Notes: generated from the letters alone by a model not told the origin. A stretch of DNA of 55,644 nt from a virus (IMGVR_UViG_3300008261_000025:1-55644); one strand, 5' to 3'. Positions 315 to 52,212 are shown, counted from the first letter of the stretch. A program made the numbers and translations.

Positions 315-887
315 ATGATAGTTCATAAAATAACTAATCAATCTGCTTTCATTAGAGAAAATGTTGTAGTGGGCTTATTAGCCTGTTTTAATGCTACTTT
401 AGATGCTGTCTGTCAAATGTTTAATTTTAAAAAAGAATTGGCACGAGATTTTTATAAAGTAGACTTGGACGAATATTTTGTTAGAAATATTGTTTTTAAT
501 AATATTGACAAAAAGCAAGCCAAAAGAATTAAAAATAATATTAATTCAGTTTTGGAAGCTTATGATGCCACTAAAATTAAAACAGTTTATTCGGTATTCG
601 ATGAAAAAACACAAAAAGAGCAAAATACAACGGCAAATGTAATTTTTCAATGTTATGTTTTGTTTTACTTAAATAAAATAGCTATTAGAAAAGATTTTTT
701 TAAAAATTGCTATTTAGATTATATTCAACATTTTTCAAATATTTTAACAGATTTTGAAGGTGAAATTTGGCAATATTTAAATACTATGGAAAATCAAGAG
801 GAACATTGGCAATCAATTAAAGTTAACGCTCTAAAAAACGCTGTAAAAATACAATATGTTTTTGCAAATATAATGCCAAATAAATGA
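315..887 (+). CDS. Hypothetical protein
   Basis: 190-aa ORF coupled to neighbours; no motif recognised. Confidence 0.7.
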   Translation: MIVHKITNQSAFIRENVVVGLLACFNATLDAVCQMFNFKKELARDFYKVDLDEYFVRNIVFNNIDKKQAKRIKNNINSVLEAYDATKIKTVYSVFDEKTQKEQNTTANVIFQCYVLFYLNKIAIRKDFFKNCYLDYIQHFSNILTDFEGEIWQYLNTMENQEEHWQSIKVNALKNAVKIQYVFANIMPNK

Positions 888-1909
888 TAAGTTTTGATTT
901 ATTTGGAAAGCCAACTTTTCCAGAGGTAAAAAATATTAGGATACCATACCAAGGCAGTAAAAACAAAATAGCCCTTCAGCTTTTTGAAAAAATGCTAGAA
1001 ATAAAGCCAAATGCAAAATATTACTACGATATTTTCGGCGGCGGAGCTGCAATGTCATTTACAGCTTTGCAATTGGGTTTAAAAGTCCATTATAACGAAA
1101 AACAAAAATCTATGGTAGATTTTGTTGATTATATTATAAACCGCATAAAAAGTAATAAAAAGGGCAAATATGGGCTTTTTCCTAGTGATTTTTATAAATT
1201 TATAACAAAAGAGGAATTTGGATTTTTAAAAAATGAAAATAGCATAAAAGGACAATTTGCTAGAATATGTTATAGTTTTGGAAATGATCAAAAAACCTAT
1301 GCTTTTAGCGAAGATATCGAAAAAGAAAAGCATTTGGCACATAATATAATTATGTTTTGTTGCGAAAAAAGTTTAGCAGAATTAAATAGCTTAAAAAATA
1401 CTAAATTTGTTTTGAGTAATAAAAAGACTTGGAATGAAAGGAGGCTTGATTTTTTGTCGCAAATAGCAAATCAAAAAAGAAAAGAGGATTATTTGAGAAT
1501 ATTAAATAATTTAGTAAATTTACAGCAACTAGAGGAGTTAATAAAATTAGGATATTTAGAAAAACAACACCAACTACAAAACCTGCAACAATTAGAAAGG
1601 TTGGAAACAATAAAAACATTTAAAGGATTTACAACGACAAATTTAGATTTTCAAGATGTTATTATTGACACTCCTAAAGATGAAACTATTATTTATCTTG
1701 ATCCTCCTTATAGAGGAACTAGAAAATATTTAGAAGATGCTTTTTCTCAAGACATTGACAATTACTTCATAAATTCACCTTATACTTGTTTTTTAAGCGA
1801 ATATAATGCACCATTTGAGCCAGTTTTATCAATAAATAAAAGATCATTATTCTCATCGACAGATAAATCTAAAATAGTAATAGAAAAACTTTTTTACAAT
1901 GGTAAATAA
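884..1909 (+). CDS. N6-adenine DNA methyltransferase (D12/Dam-like class)
   Basis: PYQGSK, YDIFGGGAA (SAM binding) and IYLDPPY (catalytic) motifs. Confidence 0.85.
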   Translation: MISFDLFGKPTFPEVKNIRIPYQGSKNKIALQLFEKMLEIKPNAKYYYDIFGGGAAMSFTALQLGLKVHYNEKQKSMVDFVDYIINRIKSNKKGKYGLFPSDFYKFITKEEFGFLKNENSIKGQFARICYSFGNDQKTYAFSEDIEKEKHLAHNIIMFCCEKSLAELNSLKNTKFVLSNKKTWNERRLDFLSQIANQKRKEDYLRILNNLVNLQQLEELIKLGYLEKQHQLQNLQQLERLETIKTFKGFTTTNLDFQDVIIDTPKDETIIYLDPPYRGTRKYLEDAFSQDIDNYFINSPYTCFLSEYNAPFEPVLSINKRSLFSSTDKSKIVIEKLFYNGK

Positions 1910-32039: not shown

Positions 32040-32933
32040 TTATAAGTATTGCTTATCATAAATAGCAACACAACGACATCTTATCGTTTGGCTACTGCTA
32101 CCATTAGGGTCTCTAGGGTATTTTAAACTTTCACCACCTACCATAAAACTTTGCTCGACTGGTATTTGTTGCCCGTCTGCTGAAACATGGTCGGGTCTTG
32201 TTCTTTTATCAAGAATAGCAATCCAAGTTTTATTAGTTCTTACTAGCCCTCTGCTACTTCTTATATTAGCATTATTAATAACATTAGCCTCTTTATCCCT
32301 AGAATAAGCCTCGGCAATTCCTACTACTTGCTCTCCAATTAGTGCCGCTCTCGATTTAGCATTTGATAATAAGTTAATCTCAATATTCTTTGCTACATCT
32401 TTTTTGGCATTGCGAATTATGGTCTCGATCGTTGCAATTCTCTTTTTAGCTTTGGGAGTATCGACAGAAAGCAGTTCATTTTGCTCTCTTATAAGCTCCG
32501 CAACCTCATCTTGCTTTATTAATGTTTGTCTTTTAACAACAGTGCCTATCTCGGCAGTAGTTGTGGCAACAATATAATCTGCTTGATTTTCGCTCTCGTT
32601 TGCAGTAAAAGTTGCAAAATCTAATTCTAATTGCCTATTAATATTATCAAAATCTGTATTGTCAATTTCGCTTTTAAAACTAACATTAAAATCTTTGGCA
32701 ATACTATCTCGTAAATCAAAACCAAAAACTTTAATTGACAATCGCATCCCGTCTCTAACTTCTTTTAATATCTCTGGACGGTAATTATTAGAAAGCTCTT
32801 CAGCATTAAGCCTATCAAAATAAAAGAGTTTTGCAACATCTTTTGCTTGATTTTTCAATACTTGATAAATTTTAGAAGCGGTTTTTGCTTCTATCGGCAA
32901 TTTTAGTTCGTTAATTCTTTTTGCTTTCATCAA
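32040..32933 (-). CDS. Minor head morphogenesis protein (Mu F/SPP1 gp7)
   Basis: KTW....D.RTR.DH..ADGQ...F.VGGE.L.YP.D...I.CRC. Confidence 0.9.
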   Translation of the reverse strand: MMKAKRINELKLPIEAKTASKIYQVLKNQAKDVAKLFYFDRLNAEELSNNYRPEILKEVRDGMRLSIKVFGFDLRDSIAKDFNVSFKSEIDNTDFDNINRQLELDFATFTANESENQADYIVATTTAEIGTVVKRQTLIKQDEVAELIREQNELLSVDTPKAKKRIATIETIIRNAKKDVAKNIEINLLSNAKSRAALIGEQVVGIAEAYSRDKEANVINNANIRSSRGLVRTNKTWIAILDKRTRPDHVSADGQQIPVEQSFMVGGESLKYPRDPNGSSSQTIRCRCVAIYDKQYL

Positions 32934-34266
32934 AAAATCTGTCTGCTAATTTTTTTGCCTCATTCTCGCTAACTCCACGATCTAAAGCCATTTCAACAAA
33001 AAATGCTTTTTCATTGGTTCGGTTATCAGTGGTGTATATATCAGTTCCCATTGCAACTAAATTCGCTGGTTTTAGAATGGTATCGCCATTGTCAACAGCT
33101 TCAAGACCCATTCTTGCTCTAGCTTCATTTGTGCTAACATTGTAAGTTTCGCCGTAAGCTTTTGCAATCTGTATTTTATTCATTTCTAAAACAGCAATTC
33201 TATTTTCTTCTATCACCAATCTATGTTTTTGCTCGCCGAGTAGTGGTAAGATTTTATAATTAAAAAAGTCTATCATTTTATTGGCAAGCGGTAAAATGCA
33301 ACTTGCATAAAGTGCGATCTGGCTTTCGCTGTAATTATTATAAGACATCGCTTGATCATTAAATAAAGCGAGCGGTATTTTTAGAGTATTGTAAATTGCA
33401 TTTGCCGTTGAAACTTTTAACCCTTGAAAGTCCATATCTTTTGGATTTTCGCTAAATCTTTCAACTTTAACCCTGCCCGCCGTGACCATAAAAGATTTAC
33501 CTGCTCCTTCCGGTCCATTAATTTTACTTATTGCGGTTTTAAGTCCTTGTAATTGCTCGCTAGAATAGCTGTCATCTTCAAAAAAGAAGCCATAAGAAGG
33601 TCGGCATTGATTTCTAAGTAGAGAGTTATTATGTATCGAAGCATTAATATATTGGCTAATCTCAAGTTGTGCCGAGATAATAGGCGCTGAACCAAAAAAG
33701 CTTTCGTTTGTTAAATTTTTATCACGAAAATGCAGTAATAAATTGCCTTCGTTAGTTTCATAAATGTTTTTTTCTGCTTTATAATTATAAGTTCTAGTTA
33801 ATTGTATGTTATCTTGACTATTTGCAATATACAATACTTGCGAAGGTTTGCCAAAGCCCGAGGTATTTATGGTTATGTTTTGTGGTTTTAAAATCACCAT
33901 CTCAAAACTAGAACCTACTTTATTAAAATCGACAAAGACATTGCCGTAAAGTAGGTAATTGCTAATAAATAGAATGACAAAATCTTTATAATTTTGGTCT
34001 TTGTTAATTCTTTGCAGTTTATTTAATATTTCAGCTTGATTATTATATTGATTGCTCGTAGTTTGTGCAGTAATGGGTAAATTAGCAATAATATCGCTAA
34101 TTAAATCTATGGCAATGCCGACTGGCGAGCATTCGTAATAAGCAGAAGTGGAAAAAGCCACTACTTCACTAAAACTAGTCGAAAATTTATAAGAATTATC
34201 AAGATTTCGTTCGACAAAGCCCGAATAATTCTTTTTTGAAAAATAGTTTTTTATTGATTTTAACAT
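32911..34266 (-). CDS. Portal protein, HK97 family
   Basis: AI..I...IA.LP, LL.GN.F, LLHFR, G..PI, D.DF, IP, NEAR..MGL...GD. Confidence 0.92.
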   Translation of the reverse strand: MLKSIKNYFSKKNYSGFVERNLDNSYKFSTSFSEVVAFSTSAYYECSPVGIAIDLISDIIANLPITAQTTSNQYNNQAEILNKLQRINKDQNYKDFVILFISNYLLYGNVFVDFNKVGSSFEMVILKPQNITINTSGFGKPSQVLYIANSQDNIQLTRTYNYKAEKNIYETNEGNLLLHFRDKNLTNESFFGSAPIISAQLEISQYINASIHNNSLLRNQCRPSYGFFFEDDSYSSEQLQGLKTAISKINGPEGAGKSFMVTAGRVKVERFSENPKDMDFQGLKVSTANAIYNTLKIPLALFNDQAMSYNNYSESQIALYASCILPLANKMIDFFNYKILPLLGEQKHRLVIEENRIAVLEMNKIQIAKAYGETYNVSTNEARARMGLEAVDNGDTILKPANLVAMGTDIYTTDNRTNEKAFFVEMALDRGVSENEAKKLADRFFDESKKN

Positions 34267-34267
34267 A

Positions 34268-35494
34268 CTAAATAAATATTGCTGGACTGTGTCTGTGCTT
34301 AATTCTTGTTGTCAATGAGTATCGCAAGGCATCGATATAATGGTTGTTCTTGTCTAAAATAATCGGCAAAACTTCATTTGTCAAGCGATCTGTTTTGAAA
34401 CTGTATAATCCTAGCTCTTCTATTAGATTTTTACATCTAGGGTGAACGATAATCTTTTTATAAGCTTTTAAATGCTCGATGCCGTCTTCGACACTTCCTT
34501 TACCCTTCTCGCAAGGTCTTATATTATAGCCGTCAATAGTTTTTAAATGATTAATAGTTTCTGGTCTAGCATTGTCGCCATACATTATCCATTTTTTAGA
34601 ATCGGGTATTTTGTCAATATAATATTTTAATTCAACAATTGGTATATTAACCCCGCCTGCTTCGTGGTCAACATATAAAAAGCTATCTTTTATAAAACAA
34701 CGAACCACAGCAAAAGGATCAACACTAAAACCAAAGTCTGCACCAAGAAAAAAACGATTACTTTCGATTTCGGTGATAGGTGGTGTTTCAAATTCTCGAA
34801 TTTCGTATTTACCCTTAAATACTAAGGCATCGCTAAGTTGTTTTACCTCACCTAGCCATTTTGTGTTATAAAGTTCAGGGTTATGCTCTCTATCATAAAG
34901 CATCTCATCTTTAATCGGAGTATCATCAAAATAGGGGTTATCGTAATAATTTACTTTTACCGCTACAGTTTCTGGCAAGGGGTTTTCAATGAACATTTTA
35001 TAAGTAGGATCACTTCGATCGTTCGGGTTAAAACTTACCCATATTTCACTATTAGGATTTCTAATAGTAGGGGTTAGAAAATTCCAGCTCGCTTGACTTA
35101 CTTTTTCAGCCTCTTCTACCCAGCATAAATCAATCCCAGTGGCAGATTTGATTTGCAAAGGATCGTTGCTAATTCCTTTAAATATAAATTCGCTACCATT
35201 AGCAGATTTAATATTAGTTTGAGTTATATTAAAAAACGGATATAATTCATATAACATAATAAGGTCGGTGAGAATTTTATGCACGGAGTGAGCTATGCTA
35301 GATTGATATTCTCTAACACATAAAACTCTTATATTGTCTTTTTTAAATAGATGTTGCGGTTGCATTGCCAATATTAACATTGCTCTTGCGATATTTTCAG
35401 TTTTACCGCCACCCCTTCCGCCGTAGCAGACTTTAAATCTAGCCTTATTTTTTAGCAAAAACTCAAATTTAGATGGAATTGAAATTTTAGGCAT
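34268..35494 (-). CDS. Terminase large subunit, PBSX family
   Basis: YGGRGGGKT, WVEEA, SFNP, DNP, G.DFGF..DP, D.NNH.IDALRY. Confidence 0.95.
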   Translation of the reverse strand: MPKISIPSKFEFLLKNKARFKVCYGGRGGGKTENIARAMLILAMQPQHLFKKDNIRVLCVREYQSSIAHSVHKILTDLIMLYELYPFFNITQTNIKSANGSEFIFKGISNDPLQIKSATGIDLCWVEEAEKVSQASWNFLTPTIRNPNSEIWVSFNPNDRSDPTYKMFIENPLPETVAVKVNYYDNPYFDDTPIKDEMLYDREHNPELYNTKWLGEVKQLSDALVFKGKYEIREFETPPITEIESNRFFLGADFGFSVDPFAVVRCFIKDSFLYVDHEAGGVNIPIVELKYYIDKIPDSKKWIMYGDNARPETINHLKTIDGYNIRPCEKGKGSVEDGIEHLKAYKKIIVHPRCKNLIEELGLYSFKTDRLTNEVLPIILDKNNHYIDALRYSLTTRIKHRHSPAIFI

Positions 35495-35577: not shown

Positions 35578-36024
35578 TTACTTTTTTTCATCAGTAAAAA
35601 CCACATTAACAACTGGCATTTGCATTTTAATTGGTTCACCGTTCTCGCCTGTGAGTTCGTTTCGCTGGATTGATTTTCCGTGAACTCTATCGATAAGTTC
35701 TTGCAATGCTTTAAATGCTACTTCGTGCTTGTCTGATTTTGTCAAGTCCATAAGTTTATAAGCAATAAAACCCATTTCTTTTAAGTCCTGAGCTAAATCT
35801 GGTTTGTTTTGAGATTTTGCCTGATCCATCATCCTTCTCTCGTAGATTTCCATTGCAATTTCTAGCTGTTGTTTTAGGCTTTTTTTTTCAGCTTTGATTT
35901 TATTTGTTGCTTCTGCCCCCTTCCTAGCTATTTCTTTTCTTTCCTGTTGCGATTTGGCTGCGAGGTTATGCTTTCTTATTCTTTTCAGCCTATCTTCTTT
36001 CTCTTGTTTTTTCTTATCGTCCAT
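35578..36024 (-). CDS. Putative terminase small subunit
   Basis: Upstream of terL; EIARKG, DRVHGK..Q..ELTGENGEPI. Confidence 0.7.
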   Translation of the reverse strand: MDDKKKQEKEDRLKRIRKHNLAAKSQQERKEIARKGAEATNKIKAEKKSLKQQLEIAMEIYERRMMDQAKSQNKPDLAQDLKEMGFIAYKLMDLTKSDKHEVAFKALQELIDRVHGKSIQRNELTGENGEPIKMQMPVVNVVFTDEKK

Positions 36025-37288
36025 TTGTAAAATCTCCTATGCAATCCACCCCATTTCTTTTAACAAAGAGAGGTAAATTATTTTGTTGACAAAAGTTAAT
36101 ATACCGCCTAACGATAACATCGCAATACTTCTCTTCTAATTCAATTAGGCGAGATTTTCTTTTCGATTTTTCGCAAGCGATAAGTGTTGACCCCGAACCG
36201 CCAAAGCAGTCAAGAATTATATCATTTTCATTCGAGCAATCTAATATTGCATCGATTATCAATTCTACTGGCTTTACTGTAGGGTGCATTCTCTGCTCCT
36301 CTTTATCCCAAGAGCTATTAATTGACCTATAATCCCATACATTGGTTCTATATCTTCCTTCTTTGCCGTCTATTGATTGCCCTAATTGAAAGTTATTAAT
36401 ATGCTGTTTTGAGCCGTTTTTAAAAACAAATACCAATTCGTGCTTACTTCTATAAAATGCCCCCATTCCGCCATTATCCTTATTCCAAACACAAAGGTTT
36501 TTTAATTCTGTAAAAGATAACCTGCCAGCAGTAATAATTTCGTAAATGTGTTTCCAATCCATGCAAACATAATGTATTGAGCCGTCGATTGATTTTTTAA
36601 CTAGATTTGCAAAGACACTTACTAAGAAATCAACAAACTCATTTTCGGTCATCTCACCAGAAGCCATTTTAAATTCTTGATGTTTTGCCTTTCCCATCCC
36701 TACAACAGAAGATATTTTTACATTATAAGGTGGATCTGTAAAAATCATCGTTGCTAAATTATCATCCATTAATTTATTAAAATCTTTTATATCTCTTGAA
36801 TCACCACAAAGCAATTTATGATTGCCTAATTCATATAAATCGCCTAATTTTGTTATAATATTATCTGGCTCTTCTGGTAAATCGTCCTCGCCGATAGTCT
36901 CTTTTATTTTATCCTCAAAACTTATTTCTGGCATTTCTAAGCCCCAGCTATTTAAATCTAAACTATCAAAATTAATTTTTAATAAATCAAAATCCCATTC
37001 GCCAGTATTTGCATTTAATCTAATATTCAGTTCTTTTTCATTTTCCAATGTTAATTCAACAATAACACAATCTATTTCCTTATAACCTAGTTTTTTTAAC
37101 TCCCTAACACGAAAATGACCACCTATAATAATGTTTTTTCTATTAGCATTATCATTTACAATAATTGGCTCTACAGCACCAAATTTTTCTAAACTATTTT
37201 TTAGGGCTTCTTCTTGTTTTTTATTAGATTTTCTTGGGTTGTATTCTGCTGGTTTTAAATCCTTTATTAATCTTTTTTCAATTCTCAT
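36014..37288 (-). CDS. ParB-domain N4/N6 DNA methyltransferase
   Basis: N-terminal ParB (YNPR, FG..EPIIV, IIGGH.R); FTDPPYN, HPTVKPV, LDCFGGSGSTLIA. Confidence 0.92.
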   Translation of the reverse strand: MRIEKRLIKDLKPAEYNPRKSNKKQEEALKNSLEKFGAVEPIIVNDNANRKNIIIGGHFRVRELKKLGYKEIDCVIVELTLENEKELNIRLNANTGEWDFDLLKINFDSLDLNSWGLEMPEISFEDKIKETIGEDDLPEEPDNIITKLGDLYELGNHKLLCGDSRDIKDFNKLMDDNLATMIFTDPPYNVKISSVVGMGKAKHQEFKMASGEMTENEFVDFLVSVFANLVKKSIDGSIHYVCMDWKHIYEIITAGRLSFTELKNLCVWNKDNGGMGAFYRSKHELVFVFKNGSKQHINNFQLGQSIDGKEGRYRTNVWDYRSINSSWDKEEQRMHPTVKPVELIIDAILDCSNENDIILDCFGGSGSTLIACEKSKRKSRLIELEEKYCDVIVRRYINFCQQNNLPLFVKRNGVDCIGDFTNGR

Positions 37289-37366
37289 TTAATAAATAAA
37301 AAATATTGATAATTTTTACAAAATATAACAAAAATTAAAAAAGTCAATATTTTTAAAAAAAGATGA

Positions 37367-37448
37367 AAATAGCCGTTGACTTTTTATTTTTTATTACATA
37401 AAATATCTTTTGTCAAGAGTTCTTGACAATTACTAATCTAACTAAAAA
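37367..37448 (+). repeat. 82-bp direct repeat, left copy (promoter copy 3 plus hairpin)
   Basis: 81/82 identical to 41448-41529; TTGACT-17-TAAAAT and ttgtcaag-agtt-cttgacaa. Confidence 0.95.
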
Positions 37449-37452
37449 TAAA

Positions 37453-37761
37453 ATGAAAACAGAATGGAAACAATTAGTTTGCAATTCAAATTTAATGCAA
37501 GCAGAAACTGATCGTGCAATATTAATTAAATTGCCAAAAAGCGAATTAAAGTTCTGGCATCCCTCTAAATTAGTGAGAACTAGCGGTAAATCTGGATATA
37601 GAATGACTATCGCTTATACTGACAGTTTTGTTTTTAAATGCTTTAGAAATGGCAAAGGTCGCTATAATTCTCATGAAAAAATTGAGGAATGTGAGTTTAA
37701 TAGCAAAGAAATCGAAGAAATATTTGGCAAAACTCAACAATCAGAAAAAACAGAAGAATAG
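37453..37761 (+). CDS. Hypothetical protein (start moved to MKTEWK)
   Basis: ETDRAILI...W.PSKL motif shared with the next ORF. Confidence 0.7.
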   Translation: MKTEWKQLVCNSNLMQAETDRAILIKLPKSELKFWHPSKLVRTSGKSGYRMTIAYTDSFVFKCFRNGKGRYNSHEKIEECEFNSKEIEEIFGKTQQSEKTEE

Positions 37762-37768
37762 CAAAAAA

Positions 37769-38023
37769 ATGACGAATAGATTTTTAGTAAAAGTAAAAAT
37801 CAAAGATATTTTGCACCAAACTGAAAAAGCAACCTTATTTTTGATTAGCGAATCAGAAATTTGGTTGCCAAATAAACTATTTAGATTTGGTAAGGGTAAT
37901 TATATTACATTATGGAACGATATTGCCAACAGTAAAAATCTTGATTATGATACACTTTATCACGAGCCTGAAAAAATAGAGCCAGTTTATAATCAACAAC
38001 CTATTAATGAGTTAATAGCATGA
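37769..38023 (+). CDS. Hypothetical protein (start moved to MTNRFL)
   Basis: QTEKATLF...W.PNKL; ATGA overlap with the ibrA-like gene. Confidence 0.65.
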   Translation: MTNRFLVKVKIKDILHQTEKATLFLISESEIWLPNKLFRFGKGNYITLWNDIANSKNLDYDTLYHEPEKIEPVYNQQPINELIA

Positions 38024-39315
38024 AAAAATACTTAGATATAAATGTTTTTGATGCCTCTATTGAGAGGATAAAATTTATTTTTGATAATTTTGAGAGGGTA
38101 TATCTTTCTTTTAGTGGCGGAAAGGACAGTGGAGTTATGCTAAATCTAGTTCTTGATTATATGCGAGCTAATAAAATAGAGCAAAAATTAGGAATAATGA
38201 TATTAGATAACGAAGCAAATTACAAAGATTCTACTGACTTTATGGAGCGAATGATTGAAAATAATCTTGATTTAATAGAGCCTTATTGGTGCTGTCTTCC
38301 TATTACTTTACCCTGCACTGTTAGTGCCTATCATACAGAATGGCAATGCTGGGGCGAGAAAGATAAAGACAGATGGATTCGTCCGTTGTCAAAAAAGCCA
38401 TATGTTATAAATTTTCAAAATCATAATTTTCCATTTTTTAAAGAGAATATGAATTATGATGATTTTTGGGATAATTTTGGCAAATGGTATGGTCAAGGCA
38501 AAAAGACGGCTTGCTTAATTGGAATTAGAACAGACGAAAGTTTGAATAGGTTTAGAGCTATTATGAATAAAAAAAAGAAGATGGTAAATGGTAAATTTTG
38601 GACTAAACATAAAATTGATAATGTTTTTAATTGCTACCCTATTTATGATTGGTCTGTTGACGATATATGGACGGCTAATGTAAAATTCGATTGGGATTAT
38701 AACGAGCTTTATGATAAATTTTATCTAGCGGGAATGTCTCCTTATGCTATGCGAGTTGCAAGTCCGTTTATGAGTGAATCAAAATCATCTTTAAATCTTT
38801 ATAGAGTAATTGATCCAGAAGCTTGGCAAAAACTTTATTGCCGAGTAAATGGTGCAAATTTTATTGCTACTTACGGCGGTCAATTAGATTGGAAAAAAGT
38901 TAAATTACCGAGTGGACATACTTGGCGATCTTTTACTAAGTTTTTACTTAATTCTTTACCGAAGCCAGTTGCCGATAATTACAAGCAAAGATTTTGTCAA
39001 GCATTAAGATTTTGGTCAAGAAAAGGAAGGGGCATTGATGATAATATTATTAATCAATTAAAAGAAAATAATATACCGCACAAAATTAATGGTTTAACTC
39101 CGCACGGTTCAAAAACAAAGCAAAGAGTTATTATTCAAAAATTCCCCGATGAGCTTGATTGTTTATCTTGTCCACCGAGTGTTGTTGCTAGTTGGAAACG
39201 ATTTGCAATTACTATTTTGCGAAACGATCATACTTGCAAATATCTTGGGTTAGGTCAAACACAAGAGCAAATAAAAAGACAAAGGGAAATAATGGAAAAA
39301 TATAAAAATTTATAA
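38020..39315 (+). CDS. ibrA: IbrA-like PAPS-reductase-family PP-loop protein with DUF3440
   Basis: A..ERI.FIF..F, SFSGGKDS, W.CW....K..W.R, GIR.DES.NR, YPIYDW...DIW, YN.LYD, MRVASPF, RVNGANF, SWKR....IL.ND..CK. Confidence 0.9.
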   Translation: MKKYLDINVFDASIERIKFIFDNFERVYLSFSGGKDSGVMLNLVLDYMRANKIEQKLGIMILDNEANYKDSTDFMERMIENNLDLIEPYWCCLPITLPCTVSAYHTEWQCWGEKDKDRWIRPLSKKPYVINFQNHNFPFFKENMNYDDFWDNFGKWYGQGKKTACLIGIRTDESLNRFRAIMNKKKKMVNGKFWTKHKIDNVFNCYPIYDWSVDDIWTANVKFDWDYNELYDKFYLAGMSPYAMRVASPFMSESKSSLNLYRVIDPEAWQKLYCRVNGANFIATYGGQLDWKKVKLPSGHTWRSFTKFLLNSLPKPVADNYKQRFCQALRFWSRKGRGIDDNIINQLKENNIPHKINGLTPHGSKTKQRVIIQKFPDELDCLSCPPSVVASWKRFAITILRNDHTCKYLGLGQTQEQIKRQREIMEKYKNL

Positions 39316-39319
39316 AAAT

Positions 39320-39700
39320 ATGTTTATTAGGAAAATATCAGATATTATCGGCACTGATCGAGATATCGAATTTAGCCACAGTGGTTTTAAATCTCAAAGA
39401 TTACTTTTAGAAAAAGATGGAATGGGATTTTCATTCCATAAAACTATTTTGCCAAAGGGATTAAAACAAATTTGGCATTATAAAAAACATCTTGAGGCTT
39501 GCTACTGTATTGAGGGAGAGGCTTTTGTTACCGATTTAACAAATGGTAATGTGTTTCATATTTTGCCTGAAACAATTTATGTTTTAAATAATCACGAAAA
39601 ACATCAATTCGAGGCGATAAAAGACACAATTTTAATATCAGTATTTAATCCGCCTGTAAAAGGCAATGAGCAACACAACAACGAGGGAAGTTATGAATAA
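39320..39700 (+). CDS. ectC: Ectoine synthase (EctC)-family cupin, orphan
   Basis: S.RLLL..DGMGFSFH.T, HY..HLEA.YCIEG, Y.L..H..H, VFNPPV.G.E.H...G.Y; metal-ligand equivalents E59, Y87, H95 present. Confidence 0.9.
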   Translation: MFIRKISDIIGTDRDIEFSHSGFKSQRLLLEKDGMGFSFHKTILPKGLKQIWHYKKHLEACYCIEGEAFVTDLTNGNVFHILPETIYVLNNHEKHQFEAIKDTILISVFNPPVKGNEQHNNEGSYE

Positions 39701-40202
39701 ATCACCTGTATATAATATAAAGGCAGTTCCGCTAGAAAAGATACAAGCAAATGCTTACAACCCTAATAGTGTTGCTCCGCCTGAAATGAAATTATTAGAA
39801 TTGTCAATTTGGGAAGATGGCTATACAATGCCTATTGTTTGTTATTATTTAGCCGAGATTGATAAGTATGAAATAGTCGATGGTTATCATAGATATACAA
39901 CGATGCTAAAAAGCGAAAGAATTAGAGAGCGAGAGAATGGTTTAATACCAGTTTCTGTTATTGATAAGCCGCAAGGTGAAAGAATGGCATCAACAATTAG
40001 GCACAATAGAGCAAGAGGTTCGCACTCGGTAGAATTAATGTCTAATATTGTTGCAGAATTAGTAGAAATGGGTAAATCCGATGCTTGGATTGCAAAGCAT
40101 GTTGGTATGTCTGCCGATGAGCTACTTAGAATGAAACAAATTACAGGACTAGCAAGTTTATTCAAAGACAAAGAATTTAGCAAGTCTTGGGAGGCTGAAT
40201 AA
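39693..40202 (+). CDS. ibrB: IbrB-like ParB/Srx-domain protein (start moved to MNKSPV)
   Basis: PVY.I..VP..KI.AN.YNPN.VAPPEM.LL..SI.EDGYT.PIV, IVDG.HR, STIRHNRARG.H, FS.SW. Confidence 0.92.
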   Translation: MNKSPVYNIKAVPLEKIQANAYNPNSVAPPEMKLLELSIWEDGYTMPIVCYYLAEIDKYEIVDGYHRYTTMLKSERIRERENGLIPVSVIDKPQGERMASTIRHNRARGSHSVELMSNIVAELVEMGKSDAWIAKHVGMSADELLRMKQITGLASLFKDKEFSKSWEAE

Positions 40203-40204
40203 AA

Positions 40205-41449
40205 GTGGATAATTTTAATTATCAACAAAATGCTTTTGAAAAATTAGATAAATTAAAGGGCGGAATTCTATTTATGTCAATGGGAACTGGCAAGACTAAG
40301 GTTGCCGTTGATTTAGCCATATCAAAACAAGATAAATTTGATATAGTGTTATGGATCGCCCCAGCCTCTTTAATTTGTGAAGATAATTATAAGGCAGAAA
40401 TTGATAAATGGGGTAATAACCTCAAAAAACCGATAAAGTATTTTTCGATTGAAGGTGTTGGCAGTAGCGAAAATAATTTTCTTAATCTAATTAATTTAGC
40501 AACAAATAATAAAACATTTTGCATAATTGACGAAAGCATAACTATTAAAAATATGATTGCCAAAAGAACTAAAAGATTAATAGAAAATTGGCATCTTTTT
40601 ACTTTTAGATTAATTCTCAATGGCACTCCACTCACTAATAGCTTGCTTGATTTATATTCACAAATTAATTTTATTCACCCGTCAATATTAAAAATGACTG
40701 AAAGTCAATTTGCTAATAATTTTTTATGTTTTAAAAAAGATAGCTACCGTAGTTATGCAAAATCAAACAAACCAGCAAATCAAGAAGCATTAATAGAAAT
40801 AATAAGACCATATATATTTGACACCGCACTTTTAATTGACAAGAAAATTTATAATAAAGAGTTTATAGTAAAAATGTCTATTTTTGAAAAATTTAACTAC
40901 GAAAATTTTAAAAATAACATAATCAATTCTAGCGAGCAAATTATGGATTTTCTAGGCATAGCACAAAAATTGCAAAATTTTTATTCAAATAATTGCGAAG
41001 AGAAATTTGTTAAATTAAAAGAAATTGCGGAAAATATATTGGCAAAAGGCGAAAAAGTTATAATATATGTAAAGTTTTTAAGCGAATTAGAAAAATTAAA
41101 GGAATTATTTAAAGATGCGGTAGAATATTCTGGCAAAGACAAAAGCGGTATTTCTAAGTTTAAAAAAGATGCTAATATACTAATATCAACTTATGGAACT
41201 GGAAGTTTAGGACATAATCTGCAATTTTGCAATAATATTATTTACTTTACTCAAACATTTAATTACAAAGATAAGGAACAAAGTCTACATAGAATATATC
41301 GAGTCGGGCAGAAAAAAGATTGCAATATATATAATTTTTATATCAACACCGGACTTGACAAATTGATAGAAAATAATTTGATTAAAAAAACAAATTTACT
41401 TTTTGATGTAAAAAAAATAATTTCACAAAATAATTTAAAAAATTTGTAA
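40205..41449 (+). CDS. SNF2-family helicase/ATPase
   Basis: MGTGKT, IIDES, LNGTP, GHNLQ, QS..RI.R.GQ. Confidence 0.88.
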   Translation: MDNFNYQQNAFEKLDKLKGGILFMSMGTGKTKVAVDLAISKQDKFDIVLWIAPASLICEDNYKAEIDKWGNNLKKPIKYFSIEGVGSSENNFLNLINLATNNKTFCIIDESITIKNMIAKRTKRLIENWHLFTFRLILNGTPLTNSLLDLYSQINFIHPSILKMTESQFANNFLCFKKDSYRSYAKSNKPANQEALIEIIRPYIFDTALLIDKKIYNKEFIVKMSIFEKFNYENFKNNIINSSEQIMDFLGIAQKLQNFYSNNCEEKFVKLKEIAENILAKGEKVIIYVKFLSELEKLKELFKDAVEYSGKDKSGISKFKKDANILISTYGTGSLGHNLQFCNNIIYFTQTFNYKDKEQSLHRIYRVGQKKDCNIYNFYINTGLDKLIENNLIKKTNLLFDVKKIISQNNLKNL

Positions 41450-41529
41450 ATAGCCGTTGACTTTTTATTTTTTATTACATAAAATATCTTTTGTCAAGAG
41501 TTCTTGACAATTACTAATTTAACTAAAAA
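41448..41529 (+). repeat. 82-bp direct repeat, right copy (promoter copy 4 plus hairpin)
   Basis: Matches 37367-37448; begins within the SNF2 stop codon. Confidence 0.95.
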
Positions 41530-41540
41530 CTAAAAACAAA

Positions 41541-42044
41541 ATGACAAACTACAAATATAACACTTATGCCGAAGCATTTGAAGCAGTAAAAAGTTCTTAC
41601 TGTAATATAGAAAAAGTTAATCCTGAAATAGAAAATTACGAAGCTATTGTTATTATTGCACTAAGTAAAAATTATTGCGCTTTACAATATGTAAGCGATA
41701 AAGCAAGAGATAATAAAGATATTGCTACAATTGCAGTAAGTCAATCTGGTGACAATATAATTTATGTAAGCGATAGATTAAAAGATAACTATGATATTGC
41801 TATGATTGCGGTAAGCAACAGTTTTGATTGTATCAAAAGGGTAAGTGAAAGATTAAGAGATGACGAACAGCTTGGTATGATTTCGGTAAGTAAAAGTTGG
41901 CTAAATTTACAATTTTTAAGCGAAAGACTGAAAAATAATAAAAAAATTGTTATGGTTGCAGTAAGCAGAAATGGTGAAGCCTTGAATATTGCTGGCGAAG
42001 AGCTAAGAAATGATCCTGAATTAATTGCTTTGGCAAAAAGATAA
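41541..42044 (+). CDS. DUF4116-repeat protein
   Basis: 25-aa repeats (AV.....L.YVS.RL.DN..I); C-terminal LRNDPELIALAK. Confidence 0.8.
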   Translation: MTNYKYNTYAEAFEAVKSSYCNIEKVNPEIENYEAIVIIALSKNYCALQYVSDKARDNKDIATIAVSQSGDNIIYVSDRLKDNYDIAMIAVSNSFDCIKRVSERLRDDEQLGMISVSKSWLNLQFLSERLKNNKKIVMVAVSRNGEALNIAGEELRNDPELIALAKR

Positions 42045-51187: not shown

Positions 51188-51406
51188 ATGTTTTACTACT
51201 TGTTAATGCTAATCTTTTTATGTTTTATTGCTGCTATCTTATGTTATGGCAATAATGCAAGCAAGATTTTTGGCTGTGATATAAAAAATAAAGTTGCTAG
51301 AAAAATAGTTATTATTGCTCTATCAATTATTTTAGGCTTATCTTTGCCAATTGCAATAATGCAAAATTGCTTAAAAAATCAAATAACTAAATATTTAAAA
51401 AAATGA
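51188..51406 (+). CDS. Small two-TM membrane protein
   Basis: Two hydrophobic segments. Confidence 0.6.
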   Translation: MFYYLLMLIFLCFIAAILCYGNNASKIFGCDIKNKVARKIVIIALSIILGLSLPIAIMQNCLKNQITKYLKK

Positions 51407-52212
51407 CAAATGCAATTTGGAACGACAAAGAGTTTGTTCTTGAAAGAGTTAAGCGAGATGGATGGTGTCTTAAATTTGCTAGCGACAATTTGCGAAACAA
51501 TAAAGAGGTTGTTTTGGCGGCAGTTAAGGAAAATGGCTTGGCTCTTGTATATGCCAGCGACGAGTTAAAAAATGACAAAGAAGTAGTTTTAGCGGCAGTT
51601 AAGGAATGGGGCTTGGCTCTTGAATATGCCAGCGACGAGCTAAAAAATGACAAAGAGTTTGTTCTTGAGGCAGTTAAGGAAAATGGCTCTGCTCTTAGAT
51701 ATGTTAGCCTAAAGTTGCAAAATGACAAAGAGTTTGTTCTTGAGGCAGCTAAGGAAAATGGCTTGGCTCTTGTATATGCCAGCGACGAGTTAAAAAATGA
51801 CAAAGAAGTAGTTTTAGCGGCAGTTAAGGAATGGGGCTTGGCTCTTAAATTTGCCAGCCCCGAATTACGAAATGACAAAGAGGTCGTTCTTGAGGCAGTT
51901 AAGCAAAATGTCTCTGCTCTTAGATATGTTAGCCTAAAGTTGCAAAATGACAAAGAGTTTGTTCTTGAAAGAGTTAAGCGAGATGGATGGTGTCTTAAAT
52001 TTGCTAGCGACAATTTGCGAAACAATAAAGAGGTTGTTCTTGAGGCAGTTAAGCAAAATGGCTTGGCTCTTGAATATGCCAGCGACGAGTTAAAAAATGA
52101 CAAAGAGTTTGTTTTGGTGGCGGTGAAGGAAAATAAAGATGCTCTTGCATATGCCAATAAAGAATTCCAAAATGATCCCGAACTTGTTGCCTTGGCAAAA
52201 TCTAATTATTAA
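51403..52212 (+). CDS. DUF4116-repeat protein with about 10 x 25-aa units
   Basis: (N.KE.VL.AVK..G.AL.YAS.EL.)n with long exact nucleotide duplications. Confidence 0.9.
   Translation: MTNAIWNDKEFVLERVKRDGWCLKFASDNLRNNKEVVLAAVKENGLALVYASDELKNDKEVVLAAVKEWGLALEYASDELKNDKEFVLEAVKENGSALRYVSLKLQNDKEFVLEAAKENGLALVYASDELKNDKEVVLAAVKEWGLALKFASPELRNDKEVVLEAVKQNVSALRYVSLKLQNDKEFVLERVKRDGWCLKFASDNLRNNKEVVLEAVKQNGLALEYASDELKNDKEFVLVAVKENKDALAYANKEFQNDPELVALAKSNY

What the first reader, a model, noticed from the sequence alone, without database searches (positions are those of the whole stretch)
38020..41449. Candidate new modification system: IbrA (PP-loop) - orphan EctC - IbrB (ParB/Srx) - SNF2
Seen: four tightly packed genes (gaps of 4 nt, an 8-nt overlap, and 2 nt). 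A full-length ectoine-synthase homologue with the Glu/Tyr/His metal-ligand positions intact (Trp of the W-x-S-x-R motif is Phe) sits between ibrA and ibrB. No ectA, ectB or ectD is present in the genome. Known: IbrA/IbrB normally form an adjacent pair of unknown biochemistry; PAPS-reductase-like PP-loop proteins (e.g. DndC) and ParB/Srx folds occur in DNA-modification systems; EctC cyclises N-acetyl-diaminobutyrate by dehydration. Inference: EctC here is not an osmolyte gene but a cyclase/hydrolase step in a pathway that makes or installs an unusual base, backbone or small-molecule adduct, with SNF2 as translocase. Early-promoter control suggests an anti-defence role. I cannot confirm from the sequence that this arrangement is unreported.
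Basis: partly seen in the sequence, partly recalled or inferred. Interest (0 to 1): 0.9.

Follow-up and report, generated by a model that had tools for sequence, protein, structure and literature searches.

The report
Phage ectoine-synthase-like enzyme inside IbrA/IbrB cassette
A phage gene that looks like the salt-stress enzyme ectoine synthase is really a fixed part of a widespread, biochemically unsolved phage enzyme set (IbrA, IbrB, here with an SNF2 motor) that probably acts on DNA, so it is unlikely to make the osmoprotectant ectoine.

Summary
Four tightly packed genes (IbrA, EctC, IbrB, SNF2) lie at 38020-41449 of a complete 55.6-kb phage genome.

- **EctC is a true family member.** It passes the Pfam and NCBIfam cut-offs and keeps the Glu/Tyr/His iron ligands. 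The substrate-shaping Trp is Phe.
- **The linkage is not sporadic.** Of the best 80 EctC-encoding IMG/VR loci, 77 carry both IbrA and IbrB beside it; 14 fuse EctC to IbrB.
- **These EctCs form one clade.** It is separate from 54 EctB-linked enzymes (SH-aLRT 98), and none has the Trp.
- **IbrA co-varies with EctC.** It splits into EctC-linked and EctC-less types by one branch; the EctC-linked type has a four-Cys motif.
- **SNF2 belongs to IbrAB cassettes in general, not to EctC cassettes.** Most EctC cassettes carry two small proteins instead. The window's lineage is the SNF2-bearing sister of all others sampled.

An osmolyte role is unlikely. The best reading is an accessory amide/amidine-forming step in a DNA-directed IbrAB enzyme set, but the target and chemistry are inferred only.

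GenBank already labels this arrangement in phages Gaia and XCL1123. I found no paper on it. This scan noted the cassette before on other DNA, in at least 7 genomes.

The parts
37345..37453 (+). Direct repeat, copy 1. Holds a sigma-70-like promoter (TTGACT-17-TAAAAT, 37376-37404) and a 20-nt palindrome (37410-37429), upstream of the cassette.
   Evidence: The 109-nt repeat is 91% identical to copy 2. The promoter string and the palindrome each occur exactly twice in the window (0 of 100 shuffles reach this).
37453..37761 (+). Small ORF (102 aa from the ATG), PHROG 27058, function unknown. First gene after the promoter.
   Evidence: Relatives are found only in the window's close relatives (L005, L006, L007, L017).
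37769..38023 (+). Small ORF (about 84 aa from the internal ATG) that abuts ibrA. No family found.
   Evidence: The start is inferred from where relatives begin to align (query residues 38-130). It is lineage-specific.
38020..39315 (+). IbrA: PP-loop (SGGKDS) PAPS-reductase-like domain plus DUF3440. It is the EctC-linked subtype with four conserved Cys (C91, C92, C99, C110).
39320..39700 (+). EctC-family iron cupin of the IbrAB-linked clade. The metal triad and most substrate contacts are kept. Trp21 is Phe, and P. lautus Val59 is Cys.
39693..40202 (+). IbrB: ParB/Srx nucleotide-binding fold plus a helix-turn-helix domain. There is no C-terminal dimerisation domain.
40205..41449 (+). Minimal SNF2-family helicase core (414 aa). 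The ATPase motifs are readable in the sequence (GTGKT, DES, NGTP, RVGQ).
   Evidence: The motifs were read by eye from the translation.
41426..41534 (+). Direct repeat, copy 2 (same promoter and palindrome). It overlaps the end of SNF2 and precedes the DUF4116 gene at 41541.
36014..37288 (-). Divergent neighbour: a ParB_N-N6/N4 DNA methyltransferase fusion. This is context only and is not shown to belong to the cassette.
   Evidence: No full-length relative lies next to the other EctC loci.

Best explanation
The 126-aa EctC-family cupin is a dedicated accessory enzyme of a phage IbrA-IbrB enzyme set. It is not an ectoine (osmolyte) gene.

Shown:
- It belongs to a separate, phage-borne EctC clade that is almost always encoded between ibrA and ibrB and is sometimes fused to the N-terminus of IbrB.
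- It is under strong purifying selection.
- It keeps the iron triad and the contacts for an alpha-amino-acid head group, but has lost the Trp that clamps N-gamma-acetyl-diaminobutyrate.

Inferred mechanism:
- IbrB (ParB nucleotide-binding fold plus HTH, like Noc/KorB) brings the set to DNA.
- SNF2 gives access to duplex DNA. In most other EctC cassettes two small proteins, P4 and P5, stand in its place.
- IbrA (PP-loop, four-Cys subtype) uses ATP to adenylate a carbonyl or carboxyl group and couple an amine-bearing, amino-acid-like group to it.
- The EctC-type enzyme then uses its Fe(II) centre to activate the resulting amide for ring closure to a cyclic amidine, or runs the reverse hydrolysis.

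My odds: EctC is a working part of the IbrAB set rather than an ectoine gene, about 0.85. The target is DNA and is covalently modified, about 0.45. The specific ligase-then-cyclase chemistry, about 0.15.
For: **Linkage**
- 12 of 12 and then 77 of 80 best IMG/VR EctC loci carry both IbrA and IbrB next to EctC. 79 of 80 carry at least one by tblastn.
- The 80th, L075, reads as EctC fused to an IbrB start at a contig end.
- The gene order is IbrA-EctC-IbrB in 74 of 77 loci.
- 14 of 80 are EctC-IbrB fusions.
- 94 of the best 120 longer EctC-domain proteins are EctC(N)-IbrB(C) fusions.
- The same arrangement occurs in phages of Mycobacterium and Pseudoalteromonas and in MAG contigs labelled Bacteroidota, Planctomycetota and Gallionella.

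**Separate clade**
- All 85 Ibr-linked EctCs plus L075 lie on one side of a branch with SH-aLRT 98 and length 0.50. On the other side are 54 EctB-linked and 24 other EctCs.

**Active site**
- The triad is kept in 86/86, 86/86 and 85/86 rows.
- Ser23, Arg25, Thr40, Tyr52 and His55 are kept in 86/86, and Phe106 in 85/86.
- Trp21 is never kept (F 52, G 30, others 4), against W in 53 of 54 EctB-linked rows.
- Czech 2019 reports Trp21 as invariant in 437 cluster EctCs, and W21A leaves 9.7% activity.

**Selection**
- EctC dN/dS is 0.05-0.12.

**Co-variation with IbrA**
- EctC presence maps to one branch of the IbrA tree (100*).
- The four-Cys motif is specific to the EctC-linked type.

**Same slot used by other amine-acting enzymes**
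- A GNAT sits between ibrA and ibrB in L131 and is fused to IbrB in L114.

**DNA direction**
- The IbrB model matches Noc/KorB/ParB over about 150 columns, HTH included.
- SNF2 lies within 4 kb in 47 of 80 IbrB-selected loci.

**Precedents read**
- A phage Fe(II) thymine dioxygenase needs a ParB-like activator on dsDNA (PMC13229309).
- An asparagine-synthetase-like AMP-forming ligase adds glycine to a DNA base, and many such contigs hold ParBc proteins (PMC12783734).
Against: - No direct evidence of any DNA or RNA modification, or of any product.
- EctC passes NCBIfam's curated ectoine-synthase cut-off and keeps every catalytic residue except Trp21, so residual ectoine synthesis is not excluded.
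- Phe at the Trp position occurs in 1 of 54 EctB-linked enzymes.
- The host is unknown and may supply N-gamma-acetyl-diaminobutyrate.
- No gene that would pre-install a carboxyl handle travels with the cassette: a C5-methylase relative lies within 5 kb in only 3 of 80 loci.
- PP-loop enzymes often act on tRNA; TilS and TtuA are among the fold matches.
- The IbrA model is only moderate (pLDDT 73.5), and DUF3440 matched no solved fold.
- The tree rows are related sequences, so the counts are not independent events. On the IbrA tree, EctC presence is a single event.
Confidence: 0.5

Rival explanations
1. Osmolyte auxiliary metabolic gene. The phage EctC turns host-made N-gamma-acetyl-diaminobutyrate into ectoine to keep the infected cell alive under salt stress, as recent virome papers assume.
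For: - It is above the Pfam and NCBIfam ectoine-synthase cut-offs.
- The metal triad and most substrate contacts are intact.
- The review PMC5924519 reports that a solitary EctC of Pseudomonas syringae complemented an ectC mutant (passages).
- PMC12647753 and PMC13079714 read viral ectoine synthase this way (one passage each).
Against: - It is always embedded in IbrAB cassettes and is fused to a ParB-like protein in 14 of 80 viral loci and in 94 of the best 120 longer EctC-domain proteins.
- It forms a separate clade.
- Trp21 is lost in 86 of 86 rows, although it is reported invariant and needed for activity.
- The phage has no ectA or ectB.
- None of the 80 genome loci combines EctB with IbrA/IbrB.
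Confidence: 0.05
2. Regulatory module. IbrB is a ParB/KorB-like nucleotide-switch DNA clamp that, with IbrA, activates or times phage gene expression. EctC (or GNAT elsewhere) makes or destroys a small-molecule signal that sets the switch. No nucleic acid is modified.
For: [quoted passage not shown]
- The IbrB model is closest to Noc, KorB and ParB, including the HTH.
- The cassette heads an operon at the divergent control region next to the packaging genes.
- E. coli ybdNM is a regulated operon of unknown role.
Against: - Three enzymes keep intact catalytic motifs (PP-loop, EctC triad, SNF2 ATPase), which is heavy machinery for a switch.
- IbrA and IbrB are 58-80% identical across phages of different phyla. 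That fits a universal substrate better than host-specific promoters.
- SNF2 partners are typical of DNA-tracking systems.
Confidence: 0.15
3. Nucleotide or small-molecule metabolism for counter-defence. The set acts on free nucleotides or a host immune signal (pre-replicative base synthesis, or signal destruction) rather than on polymer DNA.
For: - The best fold matches of the IbrA N-domain are enzymes of free nucleotides: FAD synthase, CysD and PAPS/APS reductases.
- ParB/Srx folds include small-molecule kinases (SerK hit; SbnI and Srx).
- EctC's known substrates are small molecules.
Against: - IbrB carries an HTH and aligns with DNA-bound ParB-type proteins.
- SNF2 is a duplex-DNA motor, and 47 of 80 IbrB-selected loci have one.
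- No nucleotide-salvage or polymerase genes travel with the cassette.
Confidence: 0.15
4. RNA (tRNA) modification. IbrA is a TilS/TtuA-like PP-loop enzyme that modifies a tRNA base, with EctC finishing the adduct, to reprogram translation during infection.
For: - TilS, TtuA, NcsA and TtcA appear among the fold and family matches of IbrA.
- The four-Cys motif recalls the Fe-S clusters of tRNA thiolases.
Against: - The ParB plus HTH partner and the SNF2 partner point to DNA.
- The phage encodes no tRNA.
- The fold matches cover only the generic nucleotide-binding domain.
Confidence: 0.1

Closest known systems
IbrA/IbrB pairs (E. coli ECOR-9 island; K-12 YbdN/YbdM; phage pairs of PHROGs 2302 and 2159 in Streptococcus, Lactobacillus, Flavobacterium and Fusobacterium phages)
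   Same: - The same two proteins: IbrA scores 3.9e-113 against PHROG 2302 and IbrB 5.6e-80 against PHROG 2159.
- They are adjacent and co-oriented.
- An SNF2 partner is frequent.
   Different: - Here a cupin enzyme sits between the two genes.
- IbrA is a distinct subtype, only 36-49% identical to the IbrA of EctC-less cassettes, and it has a four-Cys motif.
- The biochemistry of the pair itself is unknown. No paper on it came up in searches.
Mycobacterium phage Gaia gp103/gp104 and Pseudoalteromonas phage XCL1123 (GenBank: 'PAPS reductase' + 'ectoine synthase/ParB multidomain protein')
   Same: - The same IbrA-EctC-IbrB cassette.
- IbrA is 60-63%, EctC 41-45% and IbrB 68-70% identical to the window's proteins.
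   Different: - Gaia fuses EctC to IbrB.
- Both are followed by the small P4/P5 pair rather than SNF2.
- They are annotated but, as far as my searches show, not studied.
Canonical ectoine synthase EctC of ectABC(D) clusters (P. lautus 5ONM/5ONN/5ONO; S. alaskensis 5BXX)
   Same: - The same family and length (E 1.6e-27 to 5ONO).
- The same Fe triad and the same Ser, Arg, Thr, Tyr and Phe contacts.
   Different: - No ectAB context.
- A separate clade.
- The Trp21 clamp is replaced by Phe or Gly, P. lautus Val59 is always Cys, and Cys104 is mostly Ser.
- It can be fused to ParB.
ParB-dependent phage thymine dioxygenases (5mYOX176/ParB176; PMC13229309)
   Same: A phage Fe(II) enzyme of a beta-barrel type is paired with a small ParB-like protein. 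In that system the ParB-like protein is needed for action on duplex DNA (abstract and Discussion read).
   Different: - That enzyme is a 2-oxoglutarate dioxygenase, not an EctC cupin.
- Its ParB lacks an obvious DNA-binding domain, whereas IbrB has an HTH.
- It has no PP-loop partner.
- This is a resemblance in logic only, not membership.
CmoX/CmoY hypermodification of phage DNA (5-carboxymethylcytosine plus glycine; PMC12783734)
   Same: An ATP-dependent, AMP-forming ligase couples an alpha-amino acid to a DNA base. ParBc-domain proteins occur in many of those contigs (passages).
   Different: - That system needs a carboxymethyl-installing methylase homologue and Cx-SAM. No such gene travels with the EctC cassette.
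- IbrA is PAPS-reductase-like, not asparagine-synthetase-like.
- It has no cyclase step.
Dnd/Ssp phosphorothioation (DndC PP-loop enzyme with ParB-like DndB)
   Same: A PAPS-reductase-like PP-loop protein is paired with a ParB-superfamily protein in a DNA-modifying system (passages). IbrA gives weak partial DndC hits.
   Different: - The DndC score is 29.4 bits against a cut-off of 290.4.
- There are no DndA, DndD or DndE partners in the window's cassette.
- The DUF3440 domain is not part of DndC.

Membership tests
Ectoine synthase EctC (PF06339 / NCBIfam NF009806) | Sequence scores above the curated family cut-offs | tested here: met
   Pfam 149.9 bits against 27; NCBIfam 154.6 bits against 128.
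Ectoine synthase EctC (PF06339 / NCBIfam NF009806) | Iron ligands Glu57, Tyr84 and His92 (P. lautus numbering) | tested here: met
   E59, Y87 and H95 in the window. They are kept in 86/86, 86/86 and 85/86 Ibr-linked rows. Their roles come from PMC6344544 and PMC5924519.
Ectoine synthase EctC (PF06339 / NCBIfam NF009806) | Substrate-clamping Trp21, reported invariant in 437 cluster-encoded and 145 orphan EctCs | tested here: not met
   It is Phe in the window. It is F 52, G 30, C 2, M 1 and L 1 in the 86 Ibr-linked rows, and 85 of 86 have no Trp nearby. W stands in 53 of 54 EctB-linked rows.
Ectoine synthase EctC (PF06339 / NCBIfam NF009806) | Encoded with ectA/ectB (pathway context) | tested here: not met
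   The phage has no ectA or ectB. 0 of 80 genome loci combine EctB with IbrA/IbrB. The host genome is unknown.
Ectoine synthase EctC (PF06339 / NCBIfam NF009806) | Nests among EctB-linked enzymes in a tree | tested here: not met
   The Ibr-linked rows are one side of a branch with SH-aLRT 98 and length 0.50 (quick IQ-TREE, 126 columns).
Ectoine synthase EctC (PF06339 / NCBIfam NF009806) | Cyclises N-gamma-acetyl-L-2,4-diaminobutyrate to ectoine | not testable with these tools
   This needs an enzyme assay.
IbrA/IbrB pair | IbrA has a PAPS-reductase-like PP-loop domain plus DUF3440 | tested here: met
   SGGKDS is invariant. The N-domain fold matches PAPS reductase, FAD synthase and CysD.
IbrA/IbrB pair | IbrB is a small ParB/Srx-fold protein encoded directly beside ibrA | tested here: met
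   PHROG 2159 5.6e-80. The fold matches Noc, KorB, ParB and Srx. It is adjacent apart from the inserted ectC. 80 of 80 IbrB-selected loci have IbrA next door.
IbrA/IbrB pair | Activates prophage gene expression (the activity the name rests on) | not testable with these tools
   The source study is recalled only; I did not read it.
DNA phosphorothioation DndC | Equivalog-level match to DndC | tested here: not met
   TIGR03183 scores 29.4 bits against a cut-off of 290.4. The PADLOC DndC hits are partial, 22-36 bits.
SNF2-family helicase | SNF2 N-terminal domain plus Helicase_C, with ATPase motifs present | tested here: met
   PF00176 2.2e-14 and PF00271 9.9e-06; PHROG 62 3.2e-68. The motifs GTGKT, DES, NGTP and RVGQ were read from the translation.
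Known anti-phage defence systems (PADLOC) | Full-length match of the cassette's proteins to a defined system | tested here: not met
   EctC and IbrB have no hit. IbrA and SNF2 give only partial domain-level hits.

The most novel reading that the evidence does not exclude
The cassette writes a new kind of hypermodified DNA base. IbrA acts as an ATP-dependent (AMP-forming) ligase that couples a diamino acid to a base or backbone oxygen function. The EctC-type enzyme, whose barrel is opened by loss of the Trp clamp, then cyclo-dehydrates the tethered N-acyl-diamino acid into an ectoine-like tetrahydropyrimidine-carboxylate ring attached to DNA. IbrB and SNF2 deliver the enzymes to duplex DNA. GNAT-bearing cassettes would be a sister chemistry on the same amine.
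Probability: 0.12. Interest if true: 0.9.

Novelty: new variant of a known kind. Interest (0 to 1): 0.65.

Why it matters
- **Correcting the literature.** Recent virome papers count viral 'ectoine synthase' as a salt-stress auxiliary gene. One calls it the first such gene on viral genomes (PMC12647753, passage; PMC13079714). The DUF3440 'CysH' is likewise counted as a sulfur-metabolism gene (bioRxiv 2021.01.05.425418). The data here argue that both genes belong to one conserved phage enzyme set of unknown chemistry, so those ecological readings are probably wrong.
- **A chemical foothold on an unsolved pair.** IbrA/IbrB is among the most conserved unexplained gene pairs of phages: 58-80% identity across phages of different phyla. 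The EctC variant supplies a well-understood Fe(II) amide-activating cyclase with a defined set of kept and lost substrate contacts.
- **Testable material exists.** Two cultured carriers are available: Gaia on M. smegmatis mc2 155, and XCL1123.
- **This window adds a lineage.** It is the SNF2-bearing sister of all other sampled EctC cassettes. That shows the EctC-type IbrA works with either accessory (SNF2 or P4/P5).

Tried and rejected
**Steps that led nowhere**
- Complex prediction on IbrA + IbrB + EctC, each as a 30-31-row alignment with EctC as the partner, returned 'no answer' with score 0.00. I draw nothing from it.
I used the search for related loci instead.
- A 'longer' homologue search with the single window protein found nothing. 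The profile search did.
- An AU test for the EctC clade did not finish in 287 s. It was not needed, because the free tree already shows the clade.
- I checked whether a CmoX-like C5 methylase travels with the cassette. It does so in 3 of 80 loci, so I rejected the idea.
- The P4 and P5 proteins matched no informative family, apart from P5's likeness to the DUF3440 C-terminus.
I corrected it and sent it again.

**Readings I rejected or downgraded**
- I first read the window's cassette as a recombinant: IbrA-EctC of one lineage joined to IbrB-SNF2 of another. Matched 50-row trees show no conflict in branching order. The window clade is the sister of all other EctC cassettes in the IbrA, IbrB and EctC trees, so an early-branching intermediate is the simpler reading. 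Recombination is not excluded.
- MT835761 ('Bacteriophage sp.') looked like a fifth phage with EctC. It is a high-GC stretch with an EctB-like gene directly upstream, so I dropped it as a canonical ect locus.
- The ectD search is uninformative because its control was silent.

**Limits of what I saw**
- Supplements of all papers were not seen. They may bear on which viral contigs carried 'ectoine synthase' in PMC12647753, and on ParB fusion partners in bioRxiv 2025.10.10.680097.
- The statement that no paper describes the EctC-IbrAB cassette rests on searches only.

Full report
**What is there.** The window is a complete 55,644-bp virus record with direct terminal repeats. Leftward genes from 37.3 kb down to 5.7 kb encode packaging and structure: the terminase large subunit at 34268-35494 and the portal at 32911-34266. 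Rightward genes from 37.4 kb onward, running over the ends to 5.6 kb, include a RecE-like exonuclease, an Erf-like annealing protein and DNA methylases.

The finding's four genes open the rightward arm. IbrA is at 38020-39315, EctC at 39320-39700, IbrB at 39693-40202 and SNF2 at 40205-41449. The spacings are a 4-nt gap, an 8-nt overlap and a 2-nt gap. Two small lineage-specific ORFs (37453-37761 and about 37769-38023) precede ibrA.

Family assignments are firm:
- IbrA: DUF3440 2e-56, PAPS_reduct 1.7e-11, PHROG 2302 3.9e-113.
- EctC: 149.9 bits against Pfam's 27, and 154.6 bits against NCBIfam's 128.
- IbrB: PHROG 2159 5.6e-80. The generic ParB_N model scores below its cut-off (22.9 against 26.3 bits).
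- SNF2: SNF2-related domain plus Helicase_C, PHROG 62 3.2e-68.

No PHROG or PADLOC family covers the EctC.

**Is the ectC linkage sporadic? No.**
- Cultured phages: EctC relatives occur in 5 records. These are Mycobacterium phages Gaia (two records) and Nebkiss, and Pseudoalteromonas phage XCL1123, all directly after a 'PAPS reductase' gene. The fifth record is a high-GC contaminant-like stretch with an EctB-like gene upstream, which I dropped.
- IMG/VR, single-protein scan: 12 loci, all with IbrA and IbrB alongside.
- IMG/VR, profile scan: 317 stretches matched, and 245 encode an EctC relative. Of the best 80 kept, 77 have both IbrA and IbrB by tblastn.
- The three exceptions: L018 and L061 have ectC at a contig end. 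L075 reads as EctC fused to the first residues of IbrB at a contig end.
- The order is IbrA-EctC-IbrB in 74 of 77 loci. The median gaps are 15 and 32 nt.
- Fourteen of the 80 encode a single EctC-IbrB protein (L037 and L068 were wrongly flagged by my script and are not fusions).
- Among longer proteins of the 5.8-billion collection, 540 hold an EctC domain. Of the best 120, 94 are EctC(N)-IbrB(C) fusions and 26 are tandem double EctCs.
- Cellular genomes, one per species: the best 80 EctC loci divide into 54 with EctB directly upstream, 23 with neither partner, and 3 with IbrA plus IbrB. Those 3 are MAG contigs labelled Bacteroidota, Planctomycetota and Gallionella. None has both kinds of partner.

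**Is it a canonical enzyme that strayed? No.**
- In a 164-row tree, all 85 Ibr-linked EctCs plus L075 form one side of a branch with SH-aLRT 98 and length 0.50. Their nearest neighbours are two orphan EctCs, L172 and L213. This tree is a quick search on only 126 columns.
- The iron ligands are kept in 86, 86 and 85 of 86 rows.
- Ser23, Arg25, Thr40, Tyr52 and His55 are kept in 86 of 86, and Phe106 in 85 of 86.
- Trp21 is never kept: F 52, G 30, C 2, M 1, L 1. It stands in 53 of 54 EctB-linked rows.
- Czech et al. 2019 report Trp21 as invariant in 437 cluster-encoded EctCs and conserved in 145 orphans. They describe it as a piston on C3/C4 of the substrate, and W21A leaves 9.7% activity (passages).
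- Two further differences mark the clade. P. lautus Val59 is always Cys in it and always Val in EctB-linked enzymes. Cys104 is Ser in 60 of 86 rows.
- The gene is under purifying selection in the window's lineage: dN/dS 0.05-0.12, like ibrA at 0.04-0.055 and ibrB at 0.02-0.07.

So the catalytic machinery for activating an amide next to an alpha-amino-acid head group is kept, while the part that shapes the diaminobutyrate chain is changed.

**What travels with it.**
- IbrB relatives occur in 151 cultured-phage records.
- All 80 IbrB-selected IMG/VR loci have IbrA next door, but only 16 have EctC. Several of those loci are the same contigs as in the EctC set.
- IbrA is 58-95% identical to the window's when EctC is present and 36-49% when it is absent. 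IbrB is 71-80% identical either way.
- On the IbrA tree, EctC presence is one change: 93 against 62 rows, support 100 (FastTree). A 50-row IQ-TREE run agrees.
- The EctC-linked IbrA has four conserved cysteines, C91, C92, C99 and C110, each in at least 97% of rows. In EctC-less IbrA only C92 is constant; C91 is V/L/I and C110 is mostly Pro.
- The same slot between ibrA and ibrB holds other small enzymes elsewhere. A GNAT acetyltransferase is separate in L131 and fused to IbrB in L114. There is a methyltransferase-like protein in L132, plus nuclease-like inserts.
- Two small proteins follow ibrB in 69 of 80 EctC loci but are absent from the window. P4 is about 140 aa. P5 is about 88 aa and resembles the DUF3440 C-terminus.
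- In the IbrB-selected set, SNF2 and P4/P5 nearly exclude each other: SNF2 only 44, P4/P5 only 31, both 3, neither 2. These are related sequences, not independent events.
- SNF2 therefore belongs to IbrAB cassettes in general (47 of 80; 34 upstream and 13 downstream of the pair). It is rare with EctC (6 of 80).

**Where the window's lineage sits.** In matched 50-row trees, the window clade, the other EctC cassettes and the EctC-less cassettes are each one side of a branch.
- For IbrA the supports are 100, 95 and 100.
- For IbrB, a 99-supported branch places the window clade with the EctC-less rows.
- In the EctC tree the window clade is the first split, 7 against 79 rows.

The branching orders agree. 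The window's lineage is the sister of all other sampled EctC cassettes. It keeps SNF2 and an IbrB like those of EctC-less cassettes. I first read this as recombination; an early-branching intermediate is simpler (one search gave no test).

**What the partners look like.**
- The IbrA model is moderate (pLDDT 73.5) and low in the Cys loop. Its N-terminal 220-250 residues match FAD synthase, CysD, PAPS/APS reductases, TtuA/NcsA and TilS. DUF3440 matched nothing.
- The PP-loop SGGKDS is invariant.
- The IbrB model (pLDDT 74.7) matches Noc, KorB and ParB over about 150 columns, covering both the nucleotide-binding fold and the HTH. It matches Srx and SbnI over the first domain only.
- The DGxHR and RHNRARG motifs of IbrB are invariant.

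**Mechanism.**

Shown: a conserved, selected, phage-specific EctC subfamily that is genetically welded to IbrA/IbrB.

Inferred: a DNA-directed enzyme set, with these roles:
- IbrB targets the set to DNA.
- SNF2 (or P4/P5) gives access to duplex DNA.
- IbrA activates an oxygen function with ATP and couples an amine to it.
- EctC closes (or opens) a cyclic amidine.

Two papers give precedents for the logic. One describes a phage Fe(II) thymine dioxygenase that needs a ParB-like activator on duplex DNA (PMC13229309; abstract and Discussion). The other describes an AMP-forming ligase that adds glycine to 5-carboxymethylcytosine in DNA, with ParBc proteins in many of those contigs (PMC12783734; passages). 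Neither paper mentions PAPS reductase, IbrB or cupins.

Against the specific chemistry:
- No handle-installing gene travels with the cassette.
- No product is known.
- Regulatory, small-molecule and tRNA readings stay open.

**Comparison with what is known, and novelty.**
- The cassette is already labelled in GenBank for Gaia and XCL1123.
- Nine literature searches found no paper that treats EctC together with IbrA/IbrB, and none on the biochemistry of IbrA/IbrB.
- A survey of ParB-fold fusions does not mention ectoine or cupin in its main text (supplements unseen).
- Virome papers read viral ectoine synthase as an osmotic-stress gene, and DUF3440-'CysH' as sulfur metabolism.
- The 2018 review leaves the role of solitary EctCs open.
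- This scan's earlier notes describe the same cassette in at least 7 other genomes and GNAT or SNF2 forms of IbrAB in many more. I retested their main claims here. My share of fusions among viral loci (14 of 80) is lower than the 'about half' in one note.
- I rate this a new variant of a known, unsolved kind.

**Regulation.** A 109-nt direct repeat, 91% identical between copies, brackets the cassette at 37345-37453 and 41426-41534. It holds a promoter-like TTGACT-17-TAAAAT and the palindrome TTGTCAAGAGTTCTTGACAA. Each string occurs exactly twice in the window. The cassette and the next operon (a DUF4116 gene) therefore probably share one operator-controlled promoter. Timing and an anti-defence role are not shown.

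Noticed in passing
window 37345-37453 and 41426-41534: A 109-nt direct repeat (91% identical) brackets the six-gene cassette. It holds a sigma-70-like promoter and a 20-nt palindrome, and each string occurs exactly twice in the genome. It may be a shared operator-controlled promoter, or a trace of cassette insertion.
   Followed up: partly
loci L010-L084 (e.g. L062:4241-4835), L001, L002: Two small conserved proteins follow ibrB in 69 of 80 EctC loci: P4 (about 140 aa) and P5 (about 88 aa, like the DUF3440 C-terminus). They nearly exclude SNF2 across IbrAB loci (44 SNF2 only, 31 P4/P5 only, 3 both, 2 neither). No family was found for P4.
   Followed up: partly
L131:3564-3998, L114:3632-4519, L132:931-1494, L140:3448-3981: Other enzymes occupy the ibrA|ibrB slot in EctC-less cassettes: a GNAT acetyltransferase (separate, or fused to the IbrB N-terminus), a methyltransferase-like protein, and a weak PD-(D/E)XK-like protein.
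   Followed up: partly
window 884-1909, 1899-2948, 36014-37288: The phage carries three DNA methyltransferase genes: a D12-class N6-adenine type, a C5-cytosine type, and a ParB_N-N6/N4 fusion. That is a heavy investment in DNA marking, separate from the cassette.
   Followed up: no
window 41541-42044 and 51403-52212: Two proteins are made of DUF4116 repeats (75-nt periodic DNA repeats at 41635-41977). Their function is unknown.
   Followed up: no
L003 (MT835761.1, 'UNVERIFIED: Bacteriophage sp.'): This record in the phage collection is high-GC. It carries an EctB-like aminotransferase directly before EctC and a long adenylation-domain-like ORF. It looks like bacterial DNA rather than a phage.
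   Followed up: partly
proteins P0101, P0102, P0105 and 23 others: About 277-aa proteins with two EctC domains in tandem and no ParB part. This is a second unexplained EctC architecture, with 30-38% identity to the window's EctC.
   Followed up: no
L075:4968-5501: The contig end repeats a peptide of the preceding ORF inside an EctC-IbrB reading frame. This is probably an assembly artefact at a repeat or a circular junction.
   Followed up: no
window 37453-37761 and 37769-38023: By eye, the two small ORFs ahead of ibrA share a motif (...SE.K/IW.P.KL.R...) and may be paralogues. Only the first has a PHROG (27058, function unknown).
   Followed up: no
window 34268-35494: The nearest cultured relatives of the terminase large subunit are Nitratiruptor phages NrS-1/2/3 (47% identity). 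With about 30% G+C this hints at a Campylobacterota-like host, but the host was not determined.
   Followed up: partly
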